Notes: a model not told the origin generated them from the letters alone. A stretch of 64,000 nt of DNA from an uncultured virus (IMG/VR IMGVR_UViG_2775507075_000002) (IMGVR_UViG_2775507075_000002), one strand, 5' to 3'; counted from the first letter of the stretch, positions 2,454 to 34,155 are shown. A program made the numbers and translations.

Positions 2454-2966
2454 TAGTTTTAACAGGGCGACAGATCAATATAGGTTCTGGCTATAAATTT
2501 TTGTCATTGCCGTAACACATTGATGTAACGAGTAAGGTTAGTCTGAAAGTGTTTTCAGGCCTTAGCTGTTTGATGGTTTTGCGAACAATGCGAGGTTAAA
2601 ATTTTTCAGCTATGGCAATGCCTTAATAGCAAATTGCTCACCTGCGATCTCTTGCATACGGTTCGCAGGTGAGCAAACTTAACCGGCTGGAAAATATTTA
2701 TAAATCGTCTTTACTCCCACTCCTATCACATCGGCTACCAAACCAATGTTTTAACTGCTCAGACCAGAAATATCTGGAAGCTTTAGGCATCTTCTTGGAA
2801 GATAGACGAGCGCAAAGACGCACACAGCAATGATGTTATGTAGTATTTTCCCCTTGAGTGTGCCTGCTCAAGGGGATTTTTTATCGCCGTATTGTACTGG
2901 CAAATATTTGTAAATAGTCTTCCCCCCCACGCCTGTCACATCGGCCACACGCGACTGGACAGGCGG

Positions 2967-6085: not shown

Positions 6086-6488
6086 GGTAAAAATGACAGT
6101 ATGCAGATTGTGTCAGTGTGAGCCAATGGTGATGACAAAGCCGGAAACCGATGGAATCACCTATTTTATGTGCATTATGTGGAATGTTCCGGATGTGGCA
6201 TAGGAACAAAACGGTTTTCTGAGCAAATGATGGAGGCTGAGGCCGCTATCAGCCAGGCTTCAGAACAGTGGGAGCTGATGAATATAACGGTTCCTGACAT
6301 CAGATAGACGATATGCGGCTCCTGTCACGTACGTTATTTAACGAGCCTCCCGGCGACCTTGTTGCACTCTAAAGACGAGAAACATCTGGAACACCAGGAA
6401 TTTTCTTAGAAGATACTCGATGCGCAAAGACGCACACAGCAATAATGTCATTCAGTATTTTCCCCCGGCGTGCCTCCGGGGGCGTTTT

Positions 6489-9079
6489 TTAAAGCATATT
6501 CACAACGCTTGCCATTCTCCGGGCTATCAACTCTCCGCCAGCGGCATTCGGATGCAGGTTATCCCCGGTATAGAGACTCAGGTTATAGAGATTTATTCCG
6601 CTTTCAGCAAACAAATCGCAGACTGGCACACTGAATAACGCGCACACTTCTCTAATGGCCTGCACGTACTGTGGCAACGTAAAGCCCGCTGAGTTCGCCG
6701 CCGGATAAACCGGCTGGCTTTCAAATGTACCTCGTTTCATCGGCGTACTGAACATCACTCGTACCGTTGGTTTCAGGGTATAGATTTTGTTCAATACGAA
6801 GAACACGTCGTAATAAAACGATTTAACCGTCGTATCGTCATAATCCGCCCTGGCGTCTGCAATTGTCCCGAGCCGGCGATTCCCCGTAATCGTTCGTCCC
6901 TCCCAGAATCGAAATGAAATCCATCGCATCAATAGTGGTGGCGTTGAGTGAATCAGCCATCGTTTCTGACTCCCTGACCAGGTACGCCATAATTGGCAAT
7001 CTGGCGCATACCAGTCCGGGAAAGTAGTGGCGCAATGTAATTCCCCGTGTTTGTTATGCTGTCACCAAGGAATCCGATCCCCTTTCCCTGCCAGGGCAAT
7101 TCCTGCCCCTGCCACCGAAAGGAACATATCCAGCAGGAACAGCCTGACCAGGTGAAACCATCAGGCTGTTCAGGCGTGTCAGGTTGTAGACCTGGAACCG
7201 AACAAAATATGCATTATCAGGAACAGCATAAGGCGTATTTGCGACCAGATTCTGGAAGCCGCTGAGGAAGGTGCCGTCAATTTTATAGAATGCGCCGCCA
7301 CCTGAGCCATACGTAGAAACGAACCAGTCCCAGGAGTGACCATCATCATTGGCGTTGCGAAGTACCCCGGTGAAGAGGTTAGCCCGCCGGTCTGATAAGA
7401 AACGCCCCTGTCTGTCTGGGCGAGTTCGCTGTTATAGAGATTCACCGACACTTTTTGCAGGGACAGTGCGACCGAGCGCGCTACAGTCAGCGATTTTGTA
7501 TCAACGTAAGTTGACGTCGGCGAACCAAACGACAGGTAGCTCGCAGGGAGTGCTGAGCCTTCAACCATCATCAGTGTTTTTTTGCTGAAAGACCGTATAC
7601 CTGAAACCGGACATAAACCGCACCAGATGGCTGGTAAAAACGGTTCCGGCAGCAATAGTGGTTCAAAATTTTGGTTTTGTTGATATCAAAAAGACAACCA
7701 CACCTGATGCACTGCTTGCGATGTATTGGCGGTTAGGTTTTACCGGGATAAATGGCGTGACAAAATATCCGGATGCCACATAGGGCGCTCCAGTAGTCGC
7801 CAGCGCATAATTATCCAGCGCAACATCCTTGTTGAACATATTGCGTATGGCGCCAGAGTACCGTCCGCAATTCCCCAGCTGATTGACTGGGTGATTGCCG
7901 TTGCCTCTGCAGTTGTCAGCGCGCCAAACCCCAAATAAGATGACGGCAGAGAGGTTCCGCGAACAACCATCAGACTTTCTTACCCGATAGCGGTGTGCTC
8001 TGGAAACGCAGTAACAGGAACCATCGGAACGGTAAAGGTCGTTGCAGCAGCGACAGTGATATTTGACGTTTTGCTCAGGTCAGGATCATAGAAGCATAAT
8101 ACCTGCGTACCAGATGAGAGGATGTAACTCTCTCCGGGAAGACCGGATATAGTCAGTAACACAAAATAGCTGGCATTGCCGTCAGACTGCCGTTAGTCGA
8201 GAGCGCATATCCGTCGTTAGCCCGGTTTTTATCAAACAGGTTTCGTACCAGAGCGTTCGCTCGTGAGCTAATATCAATTGCCTGCTCCAGGGCAGTTCGT
8301 TTGCGGAGAAAGGGTCGACCAGACCGGCCCCAATGTGACCAGCAGGAAGAGAAGTACCTTTAATTAGCATCTGTCCGGATTTGCCAGTGCTCAGCGTCTG
8401 CGAGAACCGGATATAACGATCCTGCTGGCGTGGTAAAAAACGGTTCCGGCAGTGGCGCCTGCAACATAGGAAATGAAATTGCCCTGTAAATCATAAAATG
8501 CCAGTTGTGACACATTCACAGCGAAAACATACTGCGTACCGTCGAGTGCGGGTATCATGTCACTCACAAAGTACGTCCGCATTTGCGACCAGCGAGCCGG
8601 TAGAGCCAACCGCAAAACCATCCGTAGTCCGCTCTTTGTCGAAATAGTTAATGACCAGTGAGCCGCCCCTACATCAGAATAAATCTGCCCAGTCACCGCA
8701 CTGACAGAATCCAGATATGACTTAGACGCATCTGCCGCCCGTAGGCTGCAACGTCCCACCGTTGTTGATTACCTCAAGAGCCAGCGCGCTATCGTCCGGG
8801 CTGCGGTAATACGTCGTAGAGCCCACCGGAATATTCGCGATATCCCGCCTGCGCCGCAGCCAGCGTCGCATACTGGCGGCTGAGAGGAATCAGATTCTGT
8901 CGTGTCTCCTCTGTAAGGGCTTCATTCTTCGCCATCATTCCGCGCCAGTATCGAGCGGTTCACCGCCGCGGTCGTCAACCGTTCCTTGCCGGACCGTTAA
9001 CCAGTTCGTCAGCGCGCTTAACGTTGTCCATGAATATTTCCGGCGTCGTCGTGCCCAGTGGCGGGTTAAGTTCGGCCAT
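6489..9079 (-). pseudogene. Multiply frameshifted copy of the SGNH tail spike gene (probably sequencing errors)
   Basis: Fragments match the 868-aa ORF 20196..22802 with many single-base indels. Confidence 0.85.
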
Positions 9080-13702: not shown

Positions 13703-14281
13703 TCAGAGCAGCTTTGTCAAGAGCTTAGCGCGGGGCGAATTGTTCCGCTTCACTCGAGCTTTGTCTGCGGCGTTCAGGGAATAGCCAAAAGATGCATATC
13801 TTTCAATGAGCTTCTTATCCGGCCGACTTATATTGACCTGTCTGATACCATATGCATCAGCGAAACTCTCTGAAATGATGAGCGCAATCGGCATGACAAA
13901 ACCTTTCAAAGGATGGTTATGTGGATTTCCTTCGAGGTAACGAAGGGTTATACAAAGTCGATTTTTAGAACGTCTACCAAGCATCAACCCACAAAGAAAA
14001 TCGCGGCATCGAATACTCACATCAATGCGTTTGGTCTGATTACGTCTTTCTTGGTTCCAGTTGAAGTCAATGTACTGCCGTTTTTCTGGCAGACGCCAAC
14101 TCCTACTAGCCTCATCTGAGTCTTCATAATAGATATGACCCAATTTAATTTCATCAACCGGCAATTGGCTACTAAACTTCGCAGCAATGGAAATCATGGC
14201 ATCCGCGATTGCCTCAGAATAGATTAGCTCATGGGTTAGCTCTTCATTGGCAGGAAGTATACCTGCTTGTACCGACTCCAT
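13703..14281 (-). CDS. Hypothetical protein, possible GNAT-fold acetyltransferase
   Basis: GGAG RBS; LRYLEGNP..HPLKG..helix..VNISRP..LIERYASFGY resembles GNAT motifs A/B. Confidence 0.7.
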   Translation of the reverse strand: MESVQAGILPANEELTHELIYSEAIADAMISIAAKFSSQLPVDEIKLGHIYYEDSDEASRSWRLPEKRQYIDFNWNQERRNQTKRIDVSIRCRDFLCGLMLGRRSKNRLCITLRYLEGNPHNHPLKGFVMPIALIISESFADAYGIRQVNISRPDKKLIERYASFGYSLNAADKARVKRNNSPRAKLLTKLL

Positions 14282-14430
14282 ATCAACTCCCTTTTAAAAT
14301 GGTTACTAGCACCAGTAAAATAAACATTTATTGATGTTTAAAACAAACACGGATGTCTACTCTTCGCTCTAAGCGGACTCTTTCAGTAGGATGATATTAG
14401 AACACATTCGTAAGGTTAAGGAACTAACAG

Positions 14431-15696
14431 TCATCTGACCTGGAGTAAATCGCGGTACCTAGTCGTGTACCGCGGAGAAAGCATTTCACGCTTCATCTGC
14501 CATGCGGTCTGGATTCCCTGCCCTGCAAAATACAGAGTTCCTCTTCCGCCTTTCGCATTGAGATGGTCGAGAACTTCCATCAGTTTCTCGCTATTCTTCC
14601 GTGGTGCGTTGTCGTCGAAGAGGTTGAGCTGCGCTACGCCCTGGCTGTAGAAATCCCCAAGCATAACGCCTGCTTTCTGATAGCGATGCCCGTCTCGCCA
14701 GATTGCATCGAGGCATTTCGTCGCCGCGGTAATTATGTCCCTGCTGTCCTGGGTTGGCGATAGCAGCTTTACCGATGCACTGTTCCCATAGTACGGCTCG
14801 TTCAGCGCAAAGGGGCTGGTTTTGACAAATGCGGAGATAAATCTGCAATACTGGTGCTCACCACGGAGTTTCTCCGCTGCACGTGAGGCGTAGCTGCATA
14901 TCGCCTGGCGCATCTCTTCGTAGGTGGAAATCCGCTGCCCAAAGCTGCGACTACAGACAATCTCCTGCTTTACCGGCGCGAACTCCTCAAGACCGAGACA
15001 TGGCTCTCCGCGCAGCTCCCGCACAGTTCGCTCCAGAACCACATTAAAATGCTTCCGGATAAAATGGATATCGGTATCCGCCAGTTGCAGTACCGTTTTA
15101 ATCCCCATGGCCTCCAGTTTTTTACTGATGCGGCGCCCGACGCCCCAGACCTCATCCACCGGAAGCAAAGCCATCAACTTCCTCTGCCTTTCCAGATTAG
15201 ACAGGTCCACCACTCCTCCGGTCTGTCGCTGCCACTGTTTCGCAGCATGATTGGCCAGCTTCGCCAGGGTTTTAGTCTGGGCTATGCCGACGCCGACCGT
15301 GAGGTGCGTCCTGCGCAGAACCGTCTCGCGAATTTCCCTGCCAAAATCGGTAAGATCGCGACAGTTACGAACACCAGTCAGATCGCAAAATGCCTCATCA
15401 ATACTGTAAATTTCGCAGCGTGGAGATAGTTCCTCCAGCGTTGTCATCACTCGGTTGGACATATCGGCATAAAGCTCATAGTTGCTGCTAAACGCGATAA
15501 TACCGTGCCGGCGAAACATGTCCTTTTGCTTGAAATAAGGCTCACCCATTTTGACGAAGGGCTTCGCCTCTTGCGAACGAGCGATCACGCAGCCGTCGTT
15601 GTTTGACAGGACGACCACCGGCCGCCCCTTCAGGTCAGGACGGAAAACGGTCTCGCACGATGCGTAAAATGAGTTCACATCGCAAAGTGCAAACAT
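14431..15696 (-). CDS. umuC: DNA polymerase V subunit UmuC
   Basis: Y-family motifs DVNSFYASCE, YSIDE. Confidence 0.97.
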   Translation of the reverse strand: MFALCDVNSFYASCETVFRPDLKGRPVVVLSNNDGCVIARSQEAKPFVKMGEPYFKQKDMFRRHGIIAFSSNYELYADMSNRVMTTLEELSPRCEIYSIDEAFCDLTGVRNCRDLTDFGREIRETVLRRTHLTVGVGIAQTKTLAKLANHAAKQWQRQTGGVVDLSNLERQRKLMALLPVDEVWGVGRRISKKLEAMGIKTVLQLADTDIHFIRKHFNVVLERTVRELRGEPCLGLEEFAPVKQEIVCSRSFGQRISTYEEMRQAICSYASRAAEKLRGEHQYCRFISAFVKTSPFALNEPYYGNSASVKLLSPTQDSRDIITAATKCLDAIWRDGHRYQKAGVMLGDFYSQGVAQLNLFDDNAPRKNSEKLMEVLDHLNAKGGRGTLYFAGQGIQTAWQMKREMLSPRYTTRYRDLLQVR

Positions 15697-15697
15697 T

Positions 15698-16117
15698 TCA
15701 GCCAGCCGATTTGATGATGTAAGTTACGACCCCGAACACATCGAGAGTATCCTCGCTACCCACGACTATCGGCGAATATGCAGGGTTCATTGGGTTAAGC
15801 TGAACCCGCGGATGCAGCTGCAGCTTCTTAACGGTGAATTCCCCATCCACTGCAGCGATAACGATATCGCCATGAACTGCTGTCCTTGAGCTATCCACAA
15901 CAAGAAGATCACCTTCTCCTATGCCGGCATCCTTCATGCTGTCGCCGGCGGCTTTGACAAAATACGTCGCACTGGGGTGGTTAACGAGCAACTCGTTCAG
16001 ATCGATGCGTTGCTCAACGTAATCCTGTGCAGGGCTTGGAAAACCACATTGCACAAGGTCACTGTACAACGGGATCAGCATGATCTCACGTAACTCAACG
16101 GGCGTGTAAAACTGCAT
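15698..16117 (-). CDS. umuD: UmuD, 139 aa
   Basis: CGFPSPA, GDSM, VKKL S24 motifs. Confidence 0.95.
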
Positions 16118-16139
16118 AATTGACTCGCTCAGATTAATA

Positions 16140-16155
16140 CTGTTTTTATATACAG
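16140..16155. promoter_or_regulatory. LexA box of umuDC
   Basis: CTG-TTTTTATATA-CAG just upstream of umuD. Confidence 0.92.
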
Positions 16156-16335
16156 TAGTTTTAACAGGGCGACAGATCAATATAGGTTCTGGCTATAAAT
16201 TTTTGTCATTGCCGTAACACATTGATGTAACGAGTAAGGTTAGTCTGAAAGTGTTTTCAGGCCTTAGCTGTTTGATGGTTTTGCGAACAATGCGAGGTTA
16301 AAATTTTTCAGCTATGGCAATGCCTTAATAGCAAA

Positions 16336-16378
16336 TTGCTCACCTGCGATCTCTTGCATACGGTTCGCAGGTGAGCAA
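16336..16378. other. Perfect 14-bp inverted repeat (hairpin)
   Basis: TTGCTCACCTGCGA...TCGCAGGTGAGCAA. Confidence 0.8.
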
Positions 16379-16380
16379 AC

Positions 16381-16441
16381 TTAACCGGCTGGAAAATATT
16401 TATAAATCGTCTTTACTCCCACTCCTATCACATCGGCTACC
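16381..16441 (-). pseudogene. Displaced invertase 3' end (VADVIGVGVKTIYKYFPAG*)
   Basis: Colinear with 17170..17230; differences mostly at third codon positions. Confidence 0.9.
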
Positions 16442-16462
16442 AAACCAATGTTTTAACTGCTC

Positions 16463-16584
16463 AGACCAGAAATATCTGGAAGCTTTAGGCATCTTCTTGG
16501 AAGATAGACGAGCGCAAAGACGCACACAGCAATGATGTTATGTAGTATTTTCCCCTTGAGTGTGCCTGCTCAAGGGGATTTTTT
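16463..16584 (+). ncRNA. Candidate sRNA with RprA-complementary core, ending in an intrinsic terminator
   Basis: Homologous to 20078..20197; shared GCAAAGACGCACACAGCAAT; CCCCTTGAG/CTCAAGGGG hairpin plus T run. Confidence 0.6.
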
Positions 16585-16596
16585 ATCGCCGTATTG

Positions 16597-16651
16597 TACT
16601 GGCAAATATTTGTAAATAGTCTTCCCCCCCCACGCCTGTCACATCGGCCAC
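16597..16651 (-). pseudogene. Second displaced invertase 3' end (VADVTGVGGKTIYKYLPV)
   Basis: Translates in frame in copy 1; one extra C in the homopolymer in copy 2. Confidence 0.85.
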
Positions 16652-16669
16652 ACGCGACTGGACAGGCGG

Positions 16670-17092
16670 TTAGTCCGGTATGTTTCTCGCGCTACTACTG
16701 CTTACGTTAACGTCTGGTAATGATCTAGCGGCGCGACGTAAAGCGGCGTTGAAAGCAATTATAGTGACCGGCCGGCGTTGGTACTTCACACGGTTAGAAT
16801 GGCTCTGAAATAAAAAAACATCTTCTGGATAGCGTTCTCTTCTACGAGCAATCATCGCCTCCACTGGAGGGGTTGATTTAACACGTAGCTCCTTCAGGTG
16901 ACCCTGTTTTCGTATCAGTATCAAGTCACCATCAATATCATCATATCGAATACTCAGCAGCCTTCCAGCGCTTAAACCCGTGTGAAAAATTAACGCCCAC
17001 AAGTCAGCCCATGTATCTGAGATGGAAACAAGATTGCTGTTAATAGTTAAAAATTGCTCAAAACTTATTGTTTTCTTACCGTTCACGAACAA
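16670..17092 (-). CDS. Truncated tyrosine-recombinase-like protein
   Basis: LIFHTGLSAGRLLSIRYDDID resembles integrase box I (TGxR) with R>S; no HxxR or Tyr box. Confidence 0.6.
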   Translation of the reverse strand: MFVNGKKTISFEQFLTINSNLVSISDTWADLWALIFHTGLSAGRLLSIRYDDIDGDLILIRKQGHLKELRVKSTPPVEAMIARRRERYPEDVFLFQSHSNRVKYQRRPVTIIAFNAALRRAARSLPDVNVSSSSARNIPD

Positions 17093-17169
17093 ACCAAACT
17101 GTTTTCAAAGCTGAATGAATTGATTAAGCCAAACGTAACATATCAGGAAAAGTAGTGAAATCTTTGCCT

Positions 17170-17718
17170 TCAAGTCGCCGGGAGGTACTTGTAGATTGTT
17201 TTCACGTCTACACCTATCACATCGGCTACCTGCTGCCGGGTAGCGCCGTTCTCCAGCATTCTGCGGCACCGCTCCACCACTTCTTCAGTCATTACCCGGC
17301 GACGTCCGCCGATACGCCCCTGCTCTCTCGCCGCCACCAGTCCTGCGCGGGTCCTCTCCACAATCAGCTCTCGTTCCATCTCTGCCAGCGCGCTCATGAC
17401 GTGGAAGAAGAAACGCCCCGCGGCCGTTGATGTGTCGATCGAGTCAGTCAGGCTTCGAAAGTTCACCCCACGCGCCTGCAGCTCTGACACCAACGTGATT
17501 AAATCCCGCACGCTGCGCCCCAACCTATCCAGTTTCCAGACCACCAGCACATCACCCGGCTTTAGCTGCCGCAGCGCGCGCTTTAGCCCAGCCCGCCGGG
17601 CATTCTTTCCGCTCGCCGTATCCTCGTAAATCAGCTCACATTCTGCGCGAATCAGCGCATTTTTCTGTAAATCGAGGTTTTGATCCCCGGTTGATACCCG
17701 AGCATAGCCAATCAGCAC
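17170..17718 (-). CDS. Serine recombinase, Hin/Gin/Pin-type DNA invertase
   Basis: GYARVST (catalytic Ser), WKLDRLGRS, ERTRAGL, GGRR, C-terminal HTH. Confidence 0.96.
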   Translation of the reverse strand: MLIGYARVSTGDQNLDLQKNALIRAECELIYEDTASGKNARRAGLKRALRQLKPGDVLVVWKLDRLGRSVRDLITLVSELQARGVNFRSLTDSIDTSTAAGRFFFHVMSALAEMERELIVERTRAGLVAAREQGRIGGRRRVMTEEVVERCRRMLENGATRQQVADVIGVDVKTIYKYLPAT

Positions 17719-17761
17719 TATCTAACTCCTTGAAATAGCTGATTGTAAAAAGCCGCGGCCA

Positions 17762-17815
17762 TTCGCTCAAACCCTCGTTTGGGCGAAGCCTCTTTTTGGA
17801 GCAAAAAACATGGCC
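17762..17815 (+). repeat. Left inverted repeat (54 bp) with 26-bp hix/gix-like site at 17762..17787
   Basis: TTCGCTCAAACC-CT-CGTTTGGGCGAA followed by RBS and ATGGCC; exact reverse complement at 22797..22850. Confidence 0.95.
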
Positions 17816-18553
17816 CTGACTCCTCCACTCGGCTCGACGACACCAGAGGTCTTGTTACGTAATGCTGGCGATCTTGATCGCGCCATGAACAGTGAAGATG
17901 ATACCTGGCAAAACCGAGGTGGTGATGAGCTCCCCACCATGAAGGGATATCAGAAACAGGTGGATGCCATCACTGATGATGTTTTTCAGGCCAGGGATAC
18001 GGCTGTTGAAGCAGCTGCAACGTTACCCACAAAACAACAATTCCTTGAGCTACAGGTGGAAGTCGACGGTATCACGGCCGATCCTGCAAACGCGATTGCA
18101 AACATTACCATTCCGGCGAAAGACTTTGACCTTGCTGTAGGGAGTGCCAGTTTTGGCATGATAGCCAGTCGCCTCGCGGGCTGGCAGTTCACTCATGGGG
18201 TAAACGCATCCATCACCAAAATGATAGACCTGCCGTCTCACTGGTCAAAAATGCGTATATCCCTGATCTGGACAAACCTCGTTGCTAACAACAATTTCAA
18301 TGTGAGCCTTTCAGGTGAGCGGCATAGCTGGTCTGCCGGTGAGTCTTTCAATCAGGAGCCTGCAGGTTATGCTGCGGTCGTTCCGGTTAATGGCACACCG
18401 TTTATTGCAGTGGAAACACAATTAGCGCTTGATCTCACCGTTGACCCTACACGGCATACTACCCTTCGCATCGGACGAAATGGCGCGTCTTCCAGCGATA
18501 CCCTGCCCACTGCCATCGCATTACTCGCCGTCAGACTGACAAAGGTGGCTTAA
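17810..18553 (+). CDS. Tail anchor/adaptor protein of the alternative RBP set
   Basis: N-terminus MALTPPLGSTTPE..NRGGDELPT homologous to MAELNPPLGTTTPE..DRGGEPLDT. Confidence 0.78.
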   Translation: MALTPPLGSTTPEVLLRNAGDLDRAMNSEDDTWQNRGGDELPTMKGYQKQVDAITDDVFQARDTAVEAAATLPTKQQFLELQVEVDGITADPANAIANITIPAKDFDLAVGSASFGMIASRLAGWQFTHGVNASITKMIDLPSHWSKMRISLIWTNLVANNNFNVSLSGERHSWSAGESFNQEPAGYAAVVPVNGTPFIAVETQLALDLTVDPTRHTTLRIGRNGASSSDTLPTAIALLAVRLTKVA

Positions 18554-19789
18554 ATGAGTGTTTACCAGTCATGGCGGACGGCCTGGCGAACACCAGGCGT
18601 GTTAAGAAATTATCCTCCTAATCCGCTTTATGTGGATACGGTCAGAGGAAAAGCGTCGGGAAAAGGGTCAGTCGATGATCCAGTGAACAGCCTCGGTCTG
18701 GCGCAGGGGTTATGCCTCGGTCTTTCCGATTATGAAATAAAGATTATTGCCCCGGAAAGTTCTCCACTACGACAGGAGGTTGTATTTAACACCACCGAGA
18801 ATGTGACCTTATCAGGCGTTGATGGTGAACCGTGGTACACCTTTGGATCTGAAGAACATACATCCGGGTGGACTCAGAACGGTCAGATTTTTCAGAAAAC
18901 ACTGGGGTATACCTCTGTGCTTCAGGTGGTCGTTACATCAATGACGGAGACGGTCGGTGACAGAGATGATTTTCTTTTTAAACTACTACAAAACACCTCC
19001 ACGCCGACCACGCCAGCAGCTGGTGAGTATGGATATGCAGGAGGCATTATTTATGTCCGGTTACCGGATGATTCAGACCCTGCTCTGCACTCGATTGAAA
19101 TATCCCGGCGTAATTTTGGGGTAGCGACAACCGGGTTTGGACTCCTTACGGTGAATGACTGTATCGCGCGCTATTGCATGATTAATGGCATTTCCTGCGG
19201 GTTATCCACGCAACCGGCAGGCACCGGCTTCCTGACCGTCAATGACTCCGTTATTGAGTACTGTGCGAATGCCGGTGTTGGTGGTACGGGGCGAAATGAG
19301 TTGATAATCTGTAATAACGTGCGTGCCTGGCGGATTTCAAATGATGGCTTCGGGCAGCATGCGCCTGTAGGCGGTGCCGGAAAAATGATCCTGAATGGCT
19401 GTAATGGTAGTTATAACGGCGATCAGGCCGGTCAGTCTGCCCAGGGGGCTTCAAACCATGAGTTTACGAAAATGGTAATCAACGGAGGGACATTCAATTT
19501 TAATGTCTCAGGCGGAATGGTGGCTATTGAAAATGCGCAGTGTGATATTCACGGCGACACAAAATACGGGCCTGTTGTGATGGACGGGAATATGAGGCTG
19601 GGGAATACGGCAGGAACTATCGCCAGCCAGGCTGGATGCGCCTGGCTGAACTATGCCACTGGGATAGTGACGGGAGATGTAACCGTTAAAAACGGTCAAG
19701 GTGTCGGCGTTCGCCGTGGGCCAGATGCCATCGTGGAAGGTATCGCAACGATCCACTCAATCAACAACGCACTGCCGGATATTTTGTGA
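18554..19789 (+). CDS. Putative parallel beta-helix polysaccharide depolymerase without an anchor domain
   Basis: Gly/Asn/Cys-rich repeating strands (LTVNDC..NGI, LTVNDS..AGV, NNVRA..NDGF); abuts the upstream stop. Confidence 0.65.
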   Translation: MSVYQSWRTAWRTPGVLRNYPPNPLYVDTVRGKASGKGSVDDPVNSLGLAQGLCLGLSDYEIKIIAPESSPLRQEVVFNTTENVTLSGVDGEPWYTFGSEEHTSGWTQNGQIFQKTLGYTSVLQVVVTSMTETVGDRDDFLFKLLQNTSTPTTPAAGEYGYAGGIIYVRLPDDSDPALHSIEISRRNFGVATTGFGLLTVNDCIARYCMINGISCGLSTQPAGTGFLTVNDSVIEYCANAGVGGTGRNELIICNNVRAWRISNDGFGQHAPVGGAGKMILNGCNGSYNGDQAGQSAQGASNHEFTKMVINGGTFNFNVSGGMVAIENAQCDIHGDTKYGPVVMDGNMRLGNTAGTIASQAGCAWLNYATGIVTGDVTVKNGQGVGVRRGPDAIVEGIATIHSINNALPDIL

Positions 19790-19796
19790 GGTAAAA

Positions 19797-20012
19797 ATGA
19801 CAGTATGCAGATTGTGTCAGTGTGAGCCAATGGTGATGACAAAGCCGGAAACCGATGGAATCACCTATTTTTATGTGCATTATGTGGAATGTTCCGGATG
19901 TGGCATAGGAACAAAACGGTTTTCTGAGCAAATGATGGAGGCTGAGGCCGCTATCAGCCAGGCTTCAGAACAGTGGGAGCTGATGAATATAACGGTTCCT
20001 GACATCAGATAG
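19797..20012 (+). CDS. Small zinc-finger protein, Lar-like (71 aa)
   Basis: GAGGT RBS; CxxC...VECSGCG...A..QW pattern. Confidence 0.55.
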   Translation: MTVCRLCQCEPMVMTKPETDGITYFYVHYVECSGCGIGTKRFSEQMMEAEAAISQASEQWELMNITVPDIR

Positions 20013-20077
20013 ACGATATGCGGCTCCTGTCACGTACGTTATTTAACGAGCCTCCCGGCGACCTTGTTGCACTCTAA

Positions 20078-20197
20078 AGACGAGAAACATCTGGAAACAC
20101 CAGGAATTTTCTTAGAAGATACTCGATGCGCAAAGACGCACACAGCAATAATGTCATTCAGTATTTTCCCCCGGCGTGCCTCCGGGGGCGTTTTTTT
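20078..20197 (+). ncRNA. Candidate sRNA with RprA-complementary core (second, diverged homologue)
   Basis: Core 20130..20149; CCCCCGG/CCGGGGG hairpin plus T7. Confidence 0.6.
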
Positions 20198-22802
20198 AAA
20201 GCATATTCACAACGCTTGCCATTCTCCGGGCTATCAACTCTCCGCCAGCGGCATTCGGATGCAGGTTATCCCCGGTATAGAGACTCAGGTTATAGAGATT
20301 TATTCCGCTTTCAGCAAACAAATCGCAGACTGGCACACTGAATAACGCGCACACTTCTCTAATGGCCTGCACGTACTGTGGCAACGTAAAGCCCGCTGAG
20401 TTCGCCGCCGGATAAACCGGCTGGCTTTCAAATGTACCTCGTTTCATCGGCGTACTGAACATCACTCGTACCGTTGGTTTCAGGGTATAGATTTTGTTCA
20501 ATACGAAGAACACGTCGTAATAAAACGATTTAACCGTCGTATCGTCATAATCCGCCCTGGCGTCTGCAATTGTCCCGAGCCGGCGATTTCCCCCGTAATC
20601 GTTCGTCCCTCCCAGAATCGAAATGAAATCCATCGCATCAATAGTGGTGGCGTTGAGTGAATCAGCCATCGTTCTGACTCCCTGACCAGGTACGCCATAA
20701 TTGGCAATCTGGCGCATACCAGTCCGGGAAAGTAGTGGCGCAATGTAATTCCCCGTGTTTGTTATGCTGTCACCAAGGAATCCGATCCCCTTTCCCTGCC
20801 AGGGCAATTCCTGCCCCTGCCCACCGAAAGGAACATATCCAGCAGGAACAGCCTGACCAGGTGAAACCATCAGGCTGTTCAGGCGTGTCAGGTTGTAGAC
20901 CTGGAACCGAACAAAATATGCATTATCAGGAACAGCATAAGGCGTATTTGCGACCAGATTCTGGAAGCCGCTGAGGAAGGTGCCGTCAATTTTATAGAAT
21001 GCGCCGCCACCTGAGCCATACGTAGAAACGAACCAGTCTCCAGGAGTGACCATCATCATTGGCGTTGCGAAGTACCCCGGTGAAGAGGTTAGCCCGCCGG
21101 TCTGATAAGAAACGCCCCTGTCTGTCTGGGCGAGTTCGCTGTTATAGAGATTCACCGACACTTTTTGCAGGGACAGTGCGACCGAGCGCGCTACAGTCAG
21201 CGATTTTGTATCAACGTAAGTTGACGTCGGCGAACCAAACGACAGGTAGCTCGCAGGGAGTGCTGAGCCTTCAACCATCATCAGTGTGTTTTTTGCTGAA
21301 AGACCGTATACCTGAAACCGGACATAAACCGCACCAGATGGCGTGGTAAAAACGGTTCCGGCAGCAATAGTGGTGTTCAAAATTTTGGTTTTGTTGATAT
21401 CAAAATAGACAACCACACCTGATGCACTGCTTGCGATGTATTGCGTGTTAGGTTTTACCGGGATAAATGGCGTGACAAAATATCCGGATGCCACATAGGG
21501 CGCTCCAGTAGTCGCCAGCGCATAATTATCCAGCGCAACATCCTTGTTGAACATATTGCGTATGGCGGCCAGAGTACCGTCCGCAATTCCCCAGCTGATT
21601 GACTGGGTGATTGCCGTTGCCTCTGCAGTTGTCAGCGCGCCAAACCCCAAATAAGATGACGGCAGAGAGGTTCCGCGAACAACCATCAGACTTTCTTTAC
21701 CCGATAGCGGTGTGCTCTGGAAACGCAGGTAACAGGAACCAGTCGGAACGGTAAAGGTCGTTGCAGCAGCGACAGTGATATTTGACGTTTTGCTCAGGTC
21801 AGGATCATAGAAGCATAATACCTGCGTACCAGATGAGAGGATGTAACTCTCTCCGGGAAGGACCGGGATATAGTCAGTAACAAAATAGCTGGCATTTGCC
21901 GTCAGACTGCCGTTAGTCGAGAGCGCATATCCGTCGTTAGCCCGGTTTTTATCAAACAGGTTTCGTACCAGAGCGTTCGCTCGTGAGCTAATATCAATTG
22001 CCTGCTCCAGGGCAGTTCGTTTGGCGGAGAAAGGGTCGACCAGACCGGCCCCAATGTGACCAGCAGGAAGAGAAGTACCTTTAATTAGCATCTGTCCGGA
22101 TTTGCCAGTGCTCAGCGTCTGCGAGAACCGGATATAACGAGTCCTGGCTGGCGTGGTAAAAACGGTTCCGGCAGTGGCGCCTGCAACATAGGAAATGAAA
22201 TTGCCCTGTAAATCATAAAATGCCAGTTGTGACACATTCACAGCGAAAACATACTGCGTACCGTCGAGTGCGGGTATCATGTCACTCACAAAGTACGCCG
22301 CATTTGCGACCAGCGAGCCGGTAGAGCCAACCGCAAAACCATCCGTAGTCCGCTCTTTGTCGAAATAGTTAATGACCAGTGAGCCGCGCCCTACATCAGA
22401 ATAAATCTGCCCAGTCACCGCACTGACAGAATCCAGATATGACTTAGACGGCATCTGCCGCCCGGTAGGCTGCAACGTCCCACCGTTGTTGATTACCTCA
22501 AGAGCCAGCGCGCTATCGTCCGGGCTGCGGTAATACGTCGTAGAGCCCACCGGAATATTCGCGATATCCGCCTGCGCCGCAGCCAGCGTCGCATACTGGC
22601 GGCTGAGAGGAATCAGATTCTGTCGTGTCTCCTCTGTAAGGGCTTCATTCTTCGCCATCATTCCGCGCCAGGTATCGAGCGGTTCACCGCCGCGGTCGTC
22701 AACCGTTCCTGCCGGACCGTTAACCAGTTCGTCAGCGCGCTTAACGTTGTCCATGAATATTTCCGGCGTCGTCGTGCCCAGTGGCGGGTTAAGTTCGGCC
22801 AT
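20196..22802 (-). CDS. Tail spike: anchor, four tandem repeats and C-terminal SGNH esterase
   Basis: GDSIT, GTND, DNLHPN SGNH blocks; four ~135-aa repeats (NxF.K...YF.T..IPV...P....Y.RF). Confidence 0.88.
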   Translation of the reverse strand: MAELNPPLGTTTPEIFMDNVKRADELVNGPAGTVDDRGGEPLDTWRGMMAKNEALTEETRQNLIPLSRQYATLAAAQADIANIPVGSTTYYRSPDDSALALEVINNGGTLQPTGRQMPSKSYLDSVSAVTGQIYSDVGRGSLVINYFDKERTTDGFAVGSTGSLVANAAYFVSDMIPALDGTQYVFAVNVSQLAFYDLQGNFISYVAGATAGTVFTTPARTRYIRFSQTLSTGKSGQMLIKGTSLPAGHIGAGLVDPFSAKRTALEQAIDISSRANALVRNLFDKNRANDGYALSTNGSLTANASYFVTDYIPVLPGESYILSSGTQVLCFYDPDLSKTSNITVAAATTFTVPTGSCYLRFQSTPLSGKESLMVVRGTSLPSSYLGFGALTTAEATAITQSISWGIADGTLAAIRNMFNKDVALDNYALATTGAPYVASGYFVTPFIPVKPNTQYIASSASGVVVYFDINKTKILNTTIAAGTVFTTPSGAVYVRFQVYGLSAKNTLMMVEGSALPASYLSFGSPTSTYVDTKSLTVARSVALSLQKVSVNLYNSELAQTDRGVSYQTGGLTSSPGYFATPMMMVTPGDWFVSTYGSGGGAFYKIDGTFLSGFQNLVANTPYAVPDNAYFVRFQVYNLTRLNSLMVSPGQAVPAGYVPFGGQGQELPWQGKGIGFLGDSITNTGNYIAPLLSRTGMRQIANYGVPGQGVRTMADSLNATTIDAMDFISILGGTNDYGGNRRLGTIADARADYDDTTVKSFYYDVFFVLNKIYTLKPTVRVMFSTPMKRGTFESQPVYPAANSAGFTLPQYVQAIREVCALFSVPVCDLFAESGINLYNLSLYTGDNLHPNAAGGELIARRMASVVNML

Positions 22803-22850
22803 GTTTTTTGCTCCAAAAAGAGGCTTCGCCCAAACGAGGGTTTGAGCGAA
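22797..22850 (-). repeat. Right inverted repeat (54 bp), crossover site 22825..22850
   Basis: Reverse complement of 17762..17815. Confidence 0.95.
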
Positions 22851-22879
22851 AAGAGTTAATTAGGGGTTGTTATAGGGTA

Positions 22880-25800
22880 TTACGCGACGTCGCCGGGGTA
22901 TGTGGCGTCGTCGTACTGGTAGAACGATTCGAGGTATTCTTTAGCGGTGACCTGACAGGTTCCGTCTGACTGCGGGGCGATCTCCTCTACAATGGCGTCG
23001 TAGACGTGGCGCGTTGAGCCACAGAACACCAGGCGGATCGGTTCGATGGTTGCCGACGACAGGTCAACCTTCATCGGGTCATCAAACTCGCTCAGGTGCG
23101 GGACTGACAACTGAAAATCGCCCACCCTGCTCGCCACCATCAGCCCGGATGCAGAGCCATCCTGATAGCGGATCAGCGCTCGGGGATTTTCGAAAGACCA
23201 GTCCAGCGGCTCCGTAACGGTGAACGTTGTCACGCCACCAGCCGTTGTCATCGCCTCCACCAGACAGGAAATTGTGTTGTTACCCGGAATATCATCCGTG
23301 AGCACAATGCGATCGCCCGTGTTGTAGCACAGCGCGTCCAGCTCGGTAGTGGTCTGGAACGTCACCCGCTGCTGCAGGTATTTCATAAGGCGACGCATCC
23401 CGATTTGGTAGGCGTGATCCTGATTCAGTACCCCATCGAGTTTGTAGTTCTCGATTTTCACCGGCGTGGGATTATCAGGCGTCCGGCACTTAACGGTCTC
23501 CTCTGCCCAGGTAGTCCCGTTGATGTACGTCACGTCGACACCATCAAAATCATCATCTGAGGGCACGGTAAATCCGCTCTGCAGCTCCTCCACCATCTCA
23601 TGCGGAGTGATCACACCGGTCCATGGCTTAATCCCCTCGCGGTTGACCGTCGCCAGGCCATCACTCAGCAGAAAACGTGACTTCCCGGCATTGGCTATCT
23701 TCTGCAGCATTTCCAGCGCCGAGATACTGTCGCCCGTGGCGAAATCGAAATTTTCGCCCCGTGGCGTCCAGTACGCGGATTCCAACGCGTTGATGGTGTC
23801 GACATCCATTTCCAGCCCAAGAGAGTTCGCGACATGCAGCAGCGCTCCCGAAATGGTTCTGGCCGTTCCTGAGTCATAGGCCCGCGTGGCCACAACGTTT
23901 ACGCGGCGGTCCGACTGAGCCGCCAATTTGCCCCCCGTCTCAACGGTCACCGCCATCAGCGACACGCCGGGATAGGATGAAGGGCGCGTCAGCAGTCTCC
24001 CGCGCAGTGCCTGCCAGTACATCGAATCCCTGGCGTTGTTTGAGCCCTGCTCATTGCGCCGGCGACAGCGAACCTCTACCAGCCCTGGTGAGCTGAGGGT
24101 GATCCGCTCAGTGAATCCCAGCCCGTTGACGTTTTTAAGCGCATACTCTCCCTGGTGACTCACCCACCCCGATCCGGAACCGTAGGCGCGATACTGAATC
24201 TCCCACTCAACATGCCGAAGCCGCTTTTTCCCCTTGCTGTCAAAGCCACAGATGCCGTTCGGGAAGGAGAAATTCACCTCGAATGCATCCACCACTTCAT
24301 TCTCAGGGCATACGAGGAAAGGCCCCAGCCAGCCCAGCGTGTCGTTAAGGCCAGAAGCCTCATAGTCGATCATCGTCCTAGCGGTGAATCCCGGCCATGA
24401 CTCATCAACGGCACCGGAAACCAGGCGCGCCACCGTCGCCGTCGTGCCGTCAGCTGACACAATCCGGTACTCATTCCCGCGGTGAGCAAGTGAAAGCCGT
24501 TGCACCCCCTCCGGCATCCCGGAGAATGCGGTGCCCGTGGCAGAGTTATAGGCGAGTGTCACATTCGCCGTTACCGCCGGGCTGCCGCCGGTTGATGCCG
24601 TGCCGGAGGTGTAAACCGGGGCATCACCGAAAACAGCTGCAGGCAGCGAAGAGGACGTGATCGCCCCACCCGCGAACGGACTGGCCGACTCGGTTATCAG
24701 TACGGTGCCGCCGTTGTCCTGCGCAACCAGGCCGGAGCCGGTGAGTCCCTCGGTGATGGCCGCCAGCAGTCCCGACATCGAGACGTAGTTAGCCACCAGC
24801 GACACCGGGTAGCTAACCCCCTGCCAGGTGATCGTGAACGTGCTGGAGCTGGTCGAAAAATCGTAGGTGGTCGGGGCCGCACTCGCCTGGACTTTTGCCG
24901 CACTCCCCCCGGTGCCGGGCACTGCAGCCTGACCGGGGGTATATGACGCGATAAACAGATCGTAATCGACAGAGTTAAACCCCAGCGTCACCGGCATACC
25001 TACTACCGGCGCGATCTCCGTCAGCAGCGGGCTTGCGATAACGCTGTATCCGGCCGCCGTGGTGATCTGGTAGTTCGCCGGGGCTTTAAGTTCGACCACG
25101 GCGCCAGCGACCCAGCTGGGCGGCAGTGCGTTATCGTTCTCGTCATTATCGTCATCATCATCCGTGTCCAGCCCGGTAAACGTCACGCTCGATCCGGAGA
25201 CGGTCATGCTGTCTGCGATAATGTCGTCTGCGTCCGGCGACGTCTGGGCCATATCCAGCCCGGTGCCGGATGACGTCCCGCTCACTTCGGTGGAGTTGAC
25301 CCAGTTTTCGCTGCGCTCATCACCGGAAACGTCCGCGCCTGGCGGGTAATGGGTGCTGCTGAATCCCGGTAGCGTTGAAGCTGGCGTACTGCCAACCCTG
25401 ATATCGCCATTGGTATAAATCAGATCACCGACACCGAGACACAGCAGCATCTGGACGCGCATTTTCGTAGGATCGGCGGCATCAAACCGGGTAACCGGCT
25501 GCACCACATAATCAGGGTAGATACGCACCCGGCCAAATACCTCACGAATGGCATCACCGAGTTTTGCGGTATTCGCCTTTGCCGGGTTCAGGTCGAGACT
25601 TCGCCCTGTGGATGAGGTATAGCCGCCCGTATCGATGTTGCTCATCATAAAGTACGAATAGGCTGCAGCGGCAACGGAGATACCGACGCCGATCCACGCG
25701 ATTGTGGCGGCCTCCAGCCCGAAGGGAACCGGATAAAGCCTGACATCACTATCAGGGCGAATCACACACTTAGCCCACTCGCCTGGCGGAATTAACAGCC

Positions 25801-25948: not shown

Positions 25949-26325
25949 TGCCAGAACTCCACTTTGACAAATCGCCGCTTAAACCGCGGCAACGGCAGAA
26001 AGGTGACGTTCGTTCCCGGATTGCATTCCGCCACATGCAGCAGACCATCGATACTGACCACGATCCCTACGTGGGTGACAGTCGACCCGGAATAACAGGC
26101 CACCCCGGCCCCTTCGCAGGGTTCGCAGCGCTCAAGGGTAAGCATCATCCGGCGCGCTTCCCGGTCGAGGCCGCCGTCGTCTTTGGTTACCCCGGCAAAA
26201 TCGGGCCAGACGGGTAAATTCAGATCGCGGCGTATCTCGTTCACAATGCCGAAACAGTCGAGTTGCGGGTATACGCGCCCGCCCTTCAGCCAGGTGACTG
26301 AACGGTATTTATCAGGGTTGAACAT
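25945..26325 (-). CDS. NlpC/P60 tail assembly protein (gpK-like)
   Basis: GGR..LDCFG, HVGIV motifs. Confidence 0.8.
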   Translation of the reverse strand: MFNPDKYRSVTWLKGGRVYPQLDCFGIVNEIRRDLNLPVWPDFAGVTKDDGGLDREARRMMLTLERCEPCEGAGVACYSGSTVTHVGIVVSIDGLLHVAECNPGTNVTFLPLPRFKRRFVKVEFWQ

Positions 26326-26334
26326 TGGGATTCC

Positions 26335-26817: not shown

Positions 26818-26831
26818 GATTTTTACCCAAT

Positions 26832-26968: not shown

Positions 26969-26997
26969 AAGTGATTATGAAGGTGAAACGGTTTTAA

Positions 26998-34132: not shown

Positions 34133-34155
34133 AGGAGCCTCCTGTTTTTTGTGCG

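What the first reader, a model, noticed from the sequence alone, without database searches (positions are those of the whole stretch)
16463..20197. Two diverged candidate sRNAs share a 20-nt core complementary to RprA
Seen: 16463..16584 and 20078..20197 are homologous non-coding elements with different terminator stems but an identical GCAAAGACGCACACAGCAAT (16514..16533, 20130..20149). Recalled from memory: enterobacterial RprA contains AUUGCUGUGUGUAGUCUUUGC, which would pair as 12 bp (one G:U), a one-base bulge and 8 bp. The second element also has ACACCAGGAA (20097..20106), complementary to the recalled DsrA UUCCUGGUGU. Inference: phage-encoded sponges for the Rcs-induced, RpoS-activating sRNA, analogous to AgvB/AsxR. 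One copy sits inside the invertible spike cassette.
Basis: partly seen in the sequence, partly recalled or inferred. Interest (0 to 1): 0.8.

Follow-up and report, generated by a model that had tools for sequence, protein, structure and literature searches.

The report
Phage small RNA complementary to RprA
A conserved, unannotated RNA-like element of about 120 bases, sitting at the ends of tail-spike gene cassettes in Klebsiella and related phages, carries an almost invariant stretch that could pair with, and perhaps neutralise, the host stress-response small RNA RprA; so far this rests on sequence analysis only.

Summary
The 20-nt core occurs four times in the window, because 1-9614 duplicates 13703-23338. 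The two element types belong to a family found in more than 120 IMG/VR phage contigs, in Klebsiella, Escherichia and Proteus phages, in Raoultella and in 45 of 5426 E. coli genomes. Nothing in Rfam matches.

Each copy has a 5' region, a near-invariant 22-26 nt core, a variable linker and a + strand intrinsic terminator whose stem varies with compensating changes.

The real E. coli K-12 rprA contains the complementary stretch, giving 8 + 12 bp with one bulge. That stretch is the most conserved part of RprA across Enterobacteriaceae. In a scan of 2.8 Mb of an E. coli-like genome, rprA ranks second by duplex energy and first by a helix-continuity score. One Raoultella variant pairs over 21 bp. 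BLAST statistics alone would not single rprA out.

The DsrA match is chance: 10 such 10-mers in the window against 10 expected, and it is not conserved.

No promoter was found, and the expression evidence is only weak hints from contig boundaries. Type B looks like the 3' UTR of spike cassettes inside a Gin/Pin-type invertible segment. An anti-RprA role is plausible (about 0.4) but unproven.

The parts
16463..16584 (+). Element type A, copy 2: 5' region, core 16514-16533, linker, terminator stem 16551-16578 and T-run 16579-16584
   Evidence: RNA-run contigs begin at 16459 (X3) and 16463 (X12), and one ends at 16591.
20078..20197 (+). Element type B, copy 2: core 20130-20149, terminator stem 20168-20188, T-run 20191-20197. 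It lies inside the invertible segment, 66 nt downstream of the + strand ORF that ends at 20012. Its T-run overlaps the stop codon of the convergent spike ORF (20196).
2761..2882 (+). Element type A, copy 1 (in the duplicated block); core 2812-2831
6373..6491 (+). Element type B, copy 1 (in the duplicated block); core 6424-6443. It differs from copy 2 by two one-base deletions.
17170..17718 (-). Serine DNA invertase (Gin/Hin/Pin type)
   Evidence: phrog_125 'DNA invertase', E 6e-84. C-terminus ...VADVIGVDVKTIYKYLPAT.
17762..17847 (.). Left inverted repeat of the invertible segment. It holds the dyad site TTCGCTCAAACCCTCGTTTGGGCGAA, the ribosome-binding site and the start of the + strand spike gene.
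   Evidence: Loose ends in RNA-run contigs show the other junction.
22762..22850 (.). Right inverted repeat (same site, opposite orientation), holding the start of the 868-aa spike gene
17810..20012 (+). Alternative spike cassette, read as three ORFs (17810-18553, 18554-19789, 19701-20012). The first shares the N-terminal anchor with the 868-aa spike.
   Evidence: phrog_9750 N-terminus
20196..22802 (-). Tail spike or fibre gene (868 aa), currently joined to the tail operon
   Evidence: phrog_11541, phrog_9750, tail fibre families
16393..16455 (-). Remnant of an invertase 3' end (NIGLVADVIGVGVKTIYKYFPAG*), directly left of element A
16585..16660 (-). Second invertase 3'-end remnant, frameshifted in a C/G run (..RVADVTGVGG / KTIYKYLPVQYGDKKSP*). 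It reads into the terminator of element A. In E. coli 5CRE51 an intact invertase CDS overlaps the element here.
14431..16180 (-). umuD-umuC-like genes, the left neighbours of element A

Best explanation
The element is the gene for a phage RNA of about 120 nt, read on the + strand.

Type B is made as the 3' end of a tail-spike cassette transcript. It ends at its own intrinsic terminator and may be trimmed to a stable Hfq-type RNA. Type A is an orphan copy that sits convergent to the invertase gene.

The near-invariant core pairs with the invariant 3' module of host RprA. Pairing would start from the exposed ACACAGCAAU half and extend into GCAAAGAC. The RNA would therefore titrate or destabilise RprA, as an anti-sRNA or sponge. 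That would blunt the Rcs/Cpx-triggered RprA output (rpoS activation, csgD/ydaM repression) during phage growth or lysogeny.

Shown: the anatomy, the conservation, the complementarity and its rank in a genome scan. Inferred: transcription as a discrete RNA, Hfq binding, the direction of regulation and the benefit to the phage.
For: 1. Anatomy. Both types have + strand intrinsic terminators with a T-run. Across the family there are at least five different stem sequences that still pair. The proposed 5' helices contain many G:U cells that would be C-A on the other strand.

2. Conservation not conditioned on the core. 25 of 25 IMG/VR loci found with a 5'-region pattern carry the core. The 22-nt block GCGCAAAGACGCACACAGCAAT varies at only 3 columns, each in one of 13 distinct sequences, while both flanks vary.

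3. The real RprA has the complement. Cofold ddG is -22.5 kcal/mol (A) and -21.6 kcal/mol (B). Core-shuffled controls average -11, and 1 of 200 (A) and 0 of 200 (B) reach the observed value.

4. The target stretch ATTGCTGTGTGTAGTCTTTGC is exact in 34 of 35 stronger and 16 of 20 weaker RprA-family hits whose 5' parts differ widely. This could explain one invariant core in phages of several genera.

5. Genome scan of 2.8 Mb (63%) of an E. coli-like genome, both strands. rprA ranks 2 of 8049 seeded windows by duplex energy (-32.5 against a best of -33.1). It ranks 1 by a continuity-weighted score (44 against a next-best 39). A wobble-tolerant pattern hits only rprA and the elements' own antisense strands in 5 genomes, with 0 hits for the reversed control.

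6. All 7 core variants keep a strong duplex, -27.3 to -33.0 kcal/mol. The 3 transitions seen (A>G twice, C>T once) keep pairing as wobbles. A Raoultella variant, GCAAAGACGTACACACAGCAAT, gives 21 bp with one bulge.

7. Weak expression hints. In RNA run X3 a separate 133-nt contig spans 16459-16591 at depth 1110, against 310 and 330 for the flanking contigs. In X12 a contig starts at 16463 with no cover over 16147-16440.
Against: - No sigma-70-like promoter was found upstream of either type on the + strand.
- The RNA evidence comes from assembled contigs only. These show neither strand nor ends. The X3 contig breaks have k-1 overlaps with their neighbours, which is what a multi-copy repeat would also give.
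- By duplex energy alone rprA is not an outlier. Seven other sites lie at -30 kcal/mol or below, including one at -33.1.
- BLAST of the element against three genomes did not list rprA at E <= 10.
- The continuity score was chosen after seeing the data.
- The complement is never perfect. The bulge and G:U are conserved, and the 5' half of the core can fold into a small hairpin (GYGCG-CAAAGA-CGCAC), so conservation might serve that structure. Mean predicted unpaired probability of the core is only 0.50.
- Covariation for the 5' helices is not significant; 42-81 of 500 shuffles do as well.
- Because RprA's module is invariant, no phage-host covariation test is possible.
- The paired RprA stretch is not the seed reported for hdeD, which lies in a stem-loop near nt 31 (PMC5861431, passages).
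- No RprA partner in the K. pneumoniae MGH 78578 RIL-seq table could be tied to such an element. I could not check whether that strain carries one.
Confidence: 0.4

Rival explanations
1. The element acts in cis only. It is the shared 3' UTR and terminator between convergent genes (spike against spike, or element against invertase), and a conserved linker at which spike cassettes recombine. The core is conserved for a local hairpin, a protein or RNase site, or by recombination. Its match to RprA has no function.
For: - Type B fills the gap between convergent ORFs. In 8 of 11 loci with enough flank, a co-directional open frame ends 14-54 nt upstream. In 11 of 11 a convergent frame stops within 36 nt of the T-run end, and in 8 of 11 within 2 nt.
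- The same position is seen in Proteus phage Mydo and in E. coli 5CRE51.
- The family is mosaic: identical 5' parts are joined to different terminators.
- No promoter was found.
- A core hairpin is possible.
- rprA is not an outlier by energy alone.
Against: - A terminator or linker does not need 22 invariant bases while its own stem is free to change.
- The hairpin uses only 3-7 bp, and its loop and 3' tail are just as invariant.
- The estimated chance that this core has one of its two best sites in the 2.8 Mb (63%) of the genome that was scanned inside the conserved module of an sRNA is roughly 1e-2 to 1e-4. This is my estimate.
- Variants preserve or improve the pairing.
Confidence: 0.27
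2. Regulation runs the other way. Host RprA pairs with the 3' UTR of the phage spike or late mRNA, and with the type A transcript. It changes their stability or termination, so the phage reads the host's Rcs/Cpx envelope-stress state.
For: The same complementarity and conservation apply. Type B sits in the 3' UTR of receptor-binding genes. RprA is induced by envelope stress (PMC13501541 and PMC5861431, passages).
Against: The site lies 3' of the coding region and just before a terminator, where sRNA control is uncommon. Type A has no co-directional gene upstream in 46 of 65 loci, so there is nothing obvious there to regulate.
Confidence: 0.13
3. It is a conventional trans-acting phage sRNA whose core is a seed for host or phage mRNAs. 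RprA is only one of several good complements.
For: Other sites score at -30 kcal/mol or below, for example -33.1, -31.9 and -30.8. The anatomy fits an Hfq sRNA.
Against: Those sites have large internal loops and score lower on continuity. None was checked for conservation or transcription. Nothing in the 64-kb window other than the elements' own antisense strands beats -25.4 kcal/mol.
Confidence: 0.12
4. The functional strand is the - strand. Read-through from the spike or invertase gene would carry an RprA-like seed (ATTGCTGTGTGCGTCTTTGC) that mimics RprA.
For: The - strand sequence resembles the RprA module at 19 of 21 positions. Some genomes carry RprA-like paralogues that share only this module.
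Against: On the - strand no terminator follows the module, whereas RprA and its paralogues have one directly after it. The T-run and the G:U pairs fit the + strand.
Confidence: 0.03

Closest known systems
AgvB and AsxR, the bacteriophage-encoded anti-sRNAs of EHEC (Tree et al. 2014, PMC4104026; abstract and passages read)
   Same: They are prophage-encoded small RNAs with an intrinsic terminator whose short complementary stretch binds and antagonises a core-genome Hfq sRNA (GcvB, FnrS). This is the closest functional analogy.
   Different: AgvB and AsxR are 51-60 nt, with a conserved 3' region and a variable 5' end. They lie 3' of PR' at the moron site of lambdoid prophages, in convergent sRNA pairs. 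The element here is about 120 nt, has a conserved central core with variable ends, and sits at spike-cassette 3' ends or next to an invertase. It would target RprA. Rfam gave no match at the elements, and I did not compare them directly with the AgvB or AsxR sequences. Function is untested.
mRNA-derived sponges such as SroC (GcvB sponge; PMC4474525, listing and abstract only)
   Same: An RNA from the end or interior of an mRNA that carries a target-like site and titrates an sRNA. In the K. pneumoniae RIL-seq table, SroC is also the most frequent RprA partner, with 2019 chimeras.
   Different: SroC is a core-genome RNA made from the gltIJKL mRNA. Here the RNA would come from phage receptor-binding-protein cassettes, and processing has not been shown.
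RprA (Rfam RF00034)
   Same: The reverse complement of the core matches the RprA 3' module at 19 of 21 positions, and at 21 of 22 in one Raoultella variant.
   Different: The element is not an RprA gene. RF00034 does not hit the window or the nearest virus record. Similarity does not extend beyond the core in a conserved way. The terminator is on the opposite strand.
Gin/Hin/Cin/Pin invertible tail-fibre segments (Mu G, P1 C, e14 P; names recalled, not from a call)
   Same: A serine invertase lies next to a segment bounded by inverted repeats with a 26-bp dyad site, and it switches between two receptor-binding genes.
   Different: As far as I recall, no conserved small-RNA module between the convergent genes has been described for those systems. 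Here the site lies upstream of the start codons, so whole spike genes are swapped.

Membership tests
AgvB/AsxR anti-sRNA family | Length 51-60 nt, with a conserved 3' region and a variable 5' end (PMC4104026, passage) | tested here: not met
   The elements are about 120 nt. The centre is conserved while the 5' part and terminator vary.
AgvB/AsxR anti-sRNA family | Encoded 3' of PR' at the moron site of lambdoid prophages, in convergent sRNA pairs | tested here: not met
   The elements lie between umuDC and the invertase, and between convergent spike genes.
AgvB/AsxR anti-sRNA family | Shown to bind Hfq and to antagonise a core sRNA | not testable with these tools
   Only in-silico pairing is available.
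Hfq-type trans-acting sRNA | Intrinsic terminator with a U tail at the 3' end | tested here: met
   The stems vary but still pair, followed by 5-8 T.
Hfq-type trans-acting sRNA | Own promoter, or defined processing from a longer transcript | tested here: inconclusive
   There is no sigma-70-like site on the + strand. Contigs start at 16459 and 16463 in two RNA runs.
Hfq-type trans-acting sRNA | Conserved, accessible seed | tested here: inconclusive
   The core is invariant. Mean predicted unpaired probability is 0.50, and the 3' half is mostly open in the MFE folds.
3' UTR-derived sRNA | A co-directional gene ends shortly upstream and shares the terminator | tested here: met
   Met for type B in 8 of 11 loci, at 14-54 nt, in the window at 66 nt, and in Mydo and 5CRE51. 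Not met for type A in 46 of 65 loci.
Any Rfam 15 family | Score at or above the gathering threshold | tested here: not met
   one search gave only STnc100 and a tRNA, both elsewhere in the window. In one search the best E-values were 1.7 or worse.
Gin/Hin/Pin-type invertible segment (context of copy B) | Serine invertase, inverted repeats with a dyad crossover site, and both orientations present | tested here: met
   In runs X7 and X14, loose ends at 17762 read ATTAACTCTT, which is the flank of the other repeat. These could come from different strains rather than from switching.

The most novel reading that the evidence does not exclude
A pan-enterobacterial phage anti-RprA RNA travels with receptor-binding-protein cassettes. 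Its invariant core is aimed at the one module of RprA that no host varies. The copy inside the invertible segment is expressed only in one orientation, which couples the choice of tail spike to the silencing of the host's Rcs/RpoS envelope-stress branch. The core may have arisen by capture of an antisense fragment of rprA.
Probability: 0.25. Interest if true: 0.8.

Novelty: new member of a known kind. Interest (0 to 1): 0.6.

Why it matters
Phage-encoded anti-sRNAs are known from only a few lambdoid EHEC prophages. No sponge for RprA appeared in my literature searches, neither in the listings, passages and supplement table I read nor as the core sequence in full text.

If real, this would be a widespread RNA family, not in Rfam, in phages of several genera. 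It would link receptor-binding cassettes and DNA inversion to manipulation of the Rcs/Cpx-RprA-RpoS stress circuit. That circuit also governs capsule and biofilm traits that matter for phage adsorption.

It also gives a concrete 11-nt block for compensatory-mutation tests. Even if the RprA link fails, the family is a well-defined conserved non-coding module that marks the 3' boundaries of spike cassettes and could be annotated.

Tried and rejected
- **DsrA sponge.** Rejected. The 10-mer is at chance level (10 found, 10.0 expected). It lies in a helix whose sequence changes among homologues. Cofold ddG is only -3.8 and -5.8 kcal/mol.
- **Small ORF in the element.** Rejected. The would-be start is ATG, GTG, GAG, ACG or CCG in different members. 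Type A has an early stop, and the core changes are non-synonymous (by reading).
- **Invertase crossover site in the element.** Rejected. The real site, TTCGCTCAAACCCTCGTTTGGGCGAA, lies in the inverted repeats and is unlike the element.
- **Homology to rprA beyond the core.** Type B has an extra CATTCAG/CTGAGTG match, but that part varies among members.
- **A target within the phage.** Apart from the elements' own antisense strands, nothing in the window scores better than -25.4 kcal/mol.
- **A natural host target that the core might mimic.** The scan with the RprA module gave no stand-out site.
- **Phage-host covariation.** Impossible, because the RprA module is nearly invariant.
- **Covariation support for the 5' helices.** Not significant.
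- **K. pneumoniae RIL-seq table (PMC10907235, sd03).** All 36 rows naming RprA were read. None could be tied to this element, and whether that strain carries one is unknown.
- **Pas sRNA preprint and a 2026 sRNA review.** No RprA sponge appears in the passages seen.
- **This scan's earlier notes.** Nothing was found.
- **Own assembly.** It is not held, so host genes came from other genomes.
- **RNA runs.** X7 and X14 cover region A with long contigs and say nothing about ends. The parts without cover are not evidence.


Full report
**1. What is in the sequence**

GCAAAGACGCACACAGCAAT stands at 16514-16533 and at 20130-20149. The surrounding elements align at 83% over 94 columns (self-BLAST E about 1e-19; alignment). 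Each ends in a + strand intrinsic terminator with a different stem: 16551-16578 followed by six T, and 20168-20188 followed by CG and seven T.

This is because window 1-9614 is a 99.45% direct duplicate of 13703-23338. I call the form at 2761 and 16463 type A, and the form at 6373 and 20078 type B.

**2. Surroundings**

The window is a Klebsiella temperate phage. Its 23000-43000 stretch is 97.6% identical over 100% of its length to Klebsiella phage ST11-VIM1phi8.2.

Around the finding:
- umuC and umuD homologues lie at 14431-16180 (-).
- A 140-aa ORF lies at 16670-17092 (-).
- A serine DNA invertase lies at 17170-17718 (-), matching phrog_125 at E 6e-84.
- An 868-aa tail spike or fibre gene lies at 20196-22802 (-).
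- A J-like tail protein gene lies at 22880-25948 (-).

Inverted repeats at 17762-17847 and 22762-22850 (87.6% identity) each hold the dyad TTCGCTCAAACCCTCGTTTGGGCGAA, just upstream of a ribosome-binding site and an ATG. Inversion therefore swaps whole spike genes. One is the 868-aa gene. The other is an alternative cassette on the + strand, 17810-20012, read here as three ORFs.

Contigs of two RNA runs carry, before position 17762, the ten letters that flank the other repeat. The other orientation therefore exists in public data, although strain differences cannot be excluded.

Element B starts 66 nt after the + strand cassette ends. Its T-run overlaps the stop codon of the convergent 868-aa gene.

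Element A is flanked on both sides by - strand remnants of invertase 3' ends. One reads NIGLVADVIGVGVKTIYKYFPAG*. The other is frameshifted and reads ...KTIYKYLPVQYGDKKSP*, running into the terminator. In E. coli 5CRE51 an intact invertase CDS overlaps the element's terminator by 21 nt. In that genome a type-B-like copy also lies directly downstream of, and co-directional with, an SGNH-hydrolase spike gene.

**3. A family, not a pair**

BLAST finds the elements in 7 (type A) and 8 (type B) phage records, from Klebsiella, Escherichia and the lytic Proteus myovirus Mydo. It also finds them in 45 of 5426 complete E. coli genomes, always on the chromosome and never annotated as a feature of their own.

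A degenerate core pattern hit 4 loci among the GTDB species representatives, all Raoultella. Rfam has nothing here: at gathering thresholds the window gives only STnc100 and a tRNA elsewhere, and the permissive search gives E of 1.7 or worse.

Searching with the core biases any estimate of its conservation, so I also scanned IMG/VR with a pattern taken from the 5' region alone. All 25 loci carry the core. Among the 13 distinct downstream sequences, the 22-nt block GCGCAAAGACGCACACAGCAAT varies at three columns, each in a single sequence. The seven bases before it, the linker after it and the terminator all vary. BLAST and pattern searches still cannot find members that lack a conserved word, so this is a lower bound on diversity.

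The family is mosaic. Identical 5' parts are joined to different terminators.

Context in loci with enough flank:
- In 8 of 11 type B loci, an open frame of at least 70 codons on the same strand ends 14-54 nt upstream.
- In 11 of 11 type B loci a convergent frame stops within 36 nt of the T-run end. In 8 of 11 it stops within 2 nt.
- In 46 of 65 type A loci there is no such co-directional frame upstream.

In Mydo the element sits between a small gene, downstream of a large tail protein gene, and the L-shaped tail fibre gene, all on one strand.

**4. RNA features**

The terminator stems differ among members: CCCCTTGAG/CTCAAGGGG, CCCCCGG/CCGGGGG, CCCCGGC/GCCGGGG and others. They always pair and are followed by 5-8 T.

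Two small 5' helices and a short hairpin within the core (GYGCG-CAAAGA-CGCAC, 3-7 bp) are possible. On my hand-drawn structure, 81.7% of cells pair, against 29-55% when the partners are slid. That structure was derived from these same sequences. Covariation is not significant, since 42-81 of 500 shuffles do as well, and RNAalifold gives little. Many G:U cells in these helices fit the + strand.

Predicted unpaired probability of the core averages 0.50 over 68 distinct members. The ACACAGCAAT half is mostly open in the MFE folds.

No sigma-70-like promoter lies upstream on the + strand. A coding reading is unlikely: the would-be start codon is not conserved and type A has an early stop.

**5. 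Expression**

Only assembled contigs of RNA runs could be laid. In X3 a separate 133-nt contig covers 16459-16591 at word depth 1110, against 310 and 330 for its neighbours. It overlaps both neighbours by 30 letters. That points to a branch in the assembly graph, so a multi-copy repeat explains it as well as an abundant RNA does.

In X12 a contig begins at 16463 and runs to 16845, with no cover over 16147-16440. Two runs from different studies therefore stop within four bases of the predicted 5' end. This is a weak hint, no more. Strand, ends and abundance remain unknown.

**6. The RprA link**

K-12 rprA (L002:1873-1978) reads ...CGAATTGCTGTGTGTAGTCTTTGCCCATC.... The core pairs with it as GCAAAGAC/GTCTTTGC (8 bp), one bulged A in RprA, then GCACACAGCAAT/ATTGCTGTGTGT (12 bp, the first a G:U).

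Cofolding whole molecules gives ddG of -22.5 kcal/mol (A) and -21.6 kcal/mol (B). With the core shuffled in place the mean is -11, and 1 of 200 (A) and 0 of 200 (B) shuffles reach the observed value (one search gave similar values).

The RprA stretch is the most conserved part of the RprA family:
- RF00034 matched 77 of 141 sampled genomes of the family.
- The 21-mer is exact in 34 of 35 stronger hits and in 16 of 20 weaker ones, whose 5' halves are unrelated.
- Some genomes carry second, RprA-like genes that share only this module and a terminator.

The three Raoultella genomes that carry the element all have RprA. Because the module does not vary, a phage-host covariation test cannot be made. 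The invariance does offer a reason why one core serves phages of Klebsiella, Escherichia, Raoultella and Proteus.

**7. Is it more than chance?**

The window's own assembly is not held. I scanned both strands with the 28-nt conserved stretch of type B.

- By duplex energy, rprA ranks second of 8049 seeded windows: -32.5 kcal/mol, against a best of -33.1 and seven other sites at -30 or below.
- By a score that rewards continuous helices (chosen after seeing the data), rprA is first: 44 against a next-best 39.
- BLAST of the whole element against three genomes does not list rprA at E <= 10. As a plain similarity hit it is unremarkable genome-wide.
- A wobble-tolerant pattern built on the pairing geometry hits only rprA and the elements' own antisense strands in five genomes, with no hit for the reversed control. 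That pattern is tailored to the match.

My estimate, which is an inference: the chance that one of the two best sites for this particular core falls in any of roughly a hundred sRNA genes is about 1e-2 by energy and about 1e-4 by the continuity score.

The family adds some support:
- All seven core variants keep -27.3 to -33.0 kcal/mol.
- The three transitions seen keep pairing as wobbles.
- The two disruptive changes lie beside the bulge.
- A Raoultella member, GCAAAGACGTACACACAGCAAT, pairs over 21 bp with one bulge.

Against the link:
- The complement is never perfect.
- The 5' half can fold on itself.
- The stretch is not the seed reported for hdeD, which lies in a stem-loop near nt 31 (PMC5861431, passages).

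RprA has an RNase E site in a loop, and cleavage there releases a shorter form (PMC6202311, passage). From memory, not from a call: the short form keeps the 3' module, and the rpoS-pairing region lies just 5' of it.

**8. DsrA**

ACACCAGGAA is complementary to K-12 dsrA. However, the window holds 10 such 10-mers against 10.0 expected. The motif is one arm of a helix and changes among homologues. Cofold ddG is -3.8 and -5.8 kcal/mol, weaker than the shuffled baseline for RprA. I reject this part of the finding.

**9. Most likely mechanism and rivals**

My leading reading, at about 0.4, is a + strand phage RNA that pairs with the RprA 3' module and titrates or destabilises RprA. Type B would be made as the 3' end of a spike cassette. 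Type A is an orphan copy beside the invertase. This works like AgvB and AsxR (PMC4104026) or like mRNA-derived sponges.

The rivals are:
- A purely cis-acting 3' UTR, terminator and recombination linker, with a coincidental match (0.27).
- RprA regulating the phage transcript (0.13).
- A conventional sRNA with mRNA targets (0.12).
- A - strand RprA mimic (0.03).

The element is not a member of the AgvB/AsxR family. Its length, its genome position and the part that is conserved all differ.

**10. Novelty**

I found no description of it. Searches for RprA with sponge, prophage, anti-sRNA or phage, and for AgvB with AsxR, gave nothing relevant in the listings. The passages I read in a 2026 review and in a Pas sRNA preprint do not mention it. 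The core sequence in either orientation occurs in no held full text.

In the K. pneumoniae MGH 78578 RIL-seq table, the 36 rows naming RprA list SroC, several 5' UTRs and others. None could be tied to this element, and I could not check whether that strain carries one. Subscription-only papers and bioRxiv supplements were not searchable.

**11. Verdict**

This is a real, conserved, unannotated phage non-coding module with a striking but unproven complementarity to the invariant module of RprA. The DsrA part of the finding is chance.

Noticed in passing
window 1-9614 and 13703-23338: A 9.6-kb direct duplication at 99.45% identity. It covers umuDC, element A, the invertase, the invertible spike segment and the 3' end of the J-like tail gene, with about 4 kb of other genes between the copies. 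It could be a tandem prophage remnant or an assembly effect.
   Followed up: partly
window 16393-16455 and 16585-16660 (- strand): Two remnants of invertase C-termini flank element A. The second is frameshifted in a run of eight C/G. This suggests past recombination between invertase modules.
   Followed up: partly
window 17810-20012 (+): The alternative spike cassette reads as three ORFs of 247, 411 and 103 aa, rather than one long gene like its 868-aa partner. It may be split or decayed, or it may include accessory genes.
   Followed up: no
window 47102-47297 (-) and 48111-48183 (-): There is a full-length Rfam STnc100 match (108 bits, E 1e-22) and a tRNA about 0.8 kb away, within the phage region.
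   Followed up: no
window 43096-43185, and 43563-43709 against 44541-44689: There is a cluster of repeated TGCGCAG-like words and a pair of diverged direct repeats (71% identity) upstream of the structural genes. They may be protein-binding sites.
   Followed up: no
L196 (G251:C1:1418175-1418294), L197 (G145:C1:1751036-1751143), also G240 and G169: Some Enterobacteriaceae genomes carry a second RprA-like gene. It shares only the 3' module ATTGCTGTGTGTAGTCTTTGCCC and a terminator (with compensating stem changes), joined to an unrelated 5' half.
   Followed up: partly
L001 (Escherichia phage vB_EcoS-733R5, 4333-5817): In this relative, a retron-type reverse transcriptase is annotated about 1 kb from the type A element and a truncated Pin-like recombinase.
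   Followed up: no
PMC10907235, supplement sd03: In the K. pneumoniae Hfq RIL-seq table, SroC-RprA is the most frequent RprA pair, with 2019 chimeras. A host sponge-like partner for RprA may therefore already exist.
   Followed up: no
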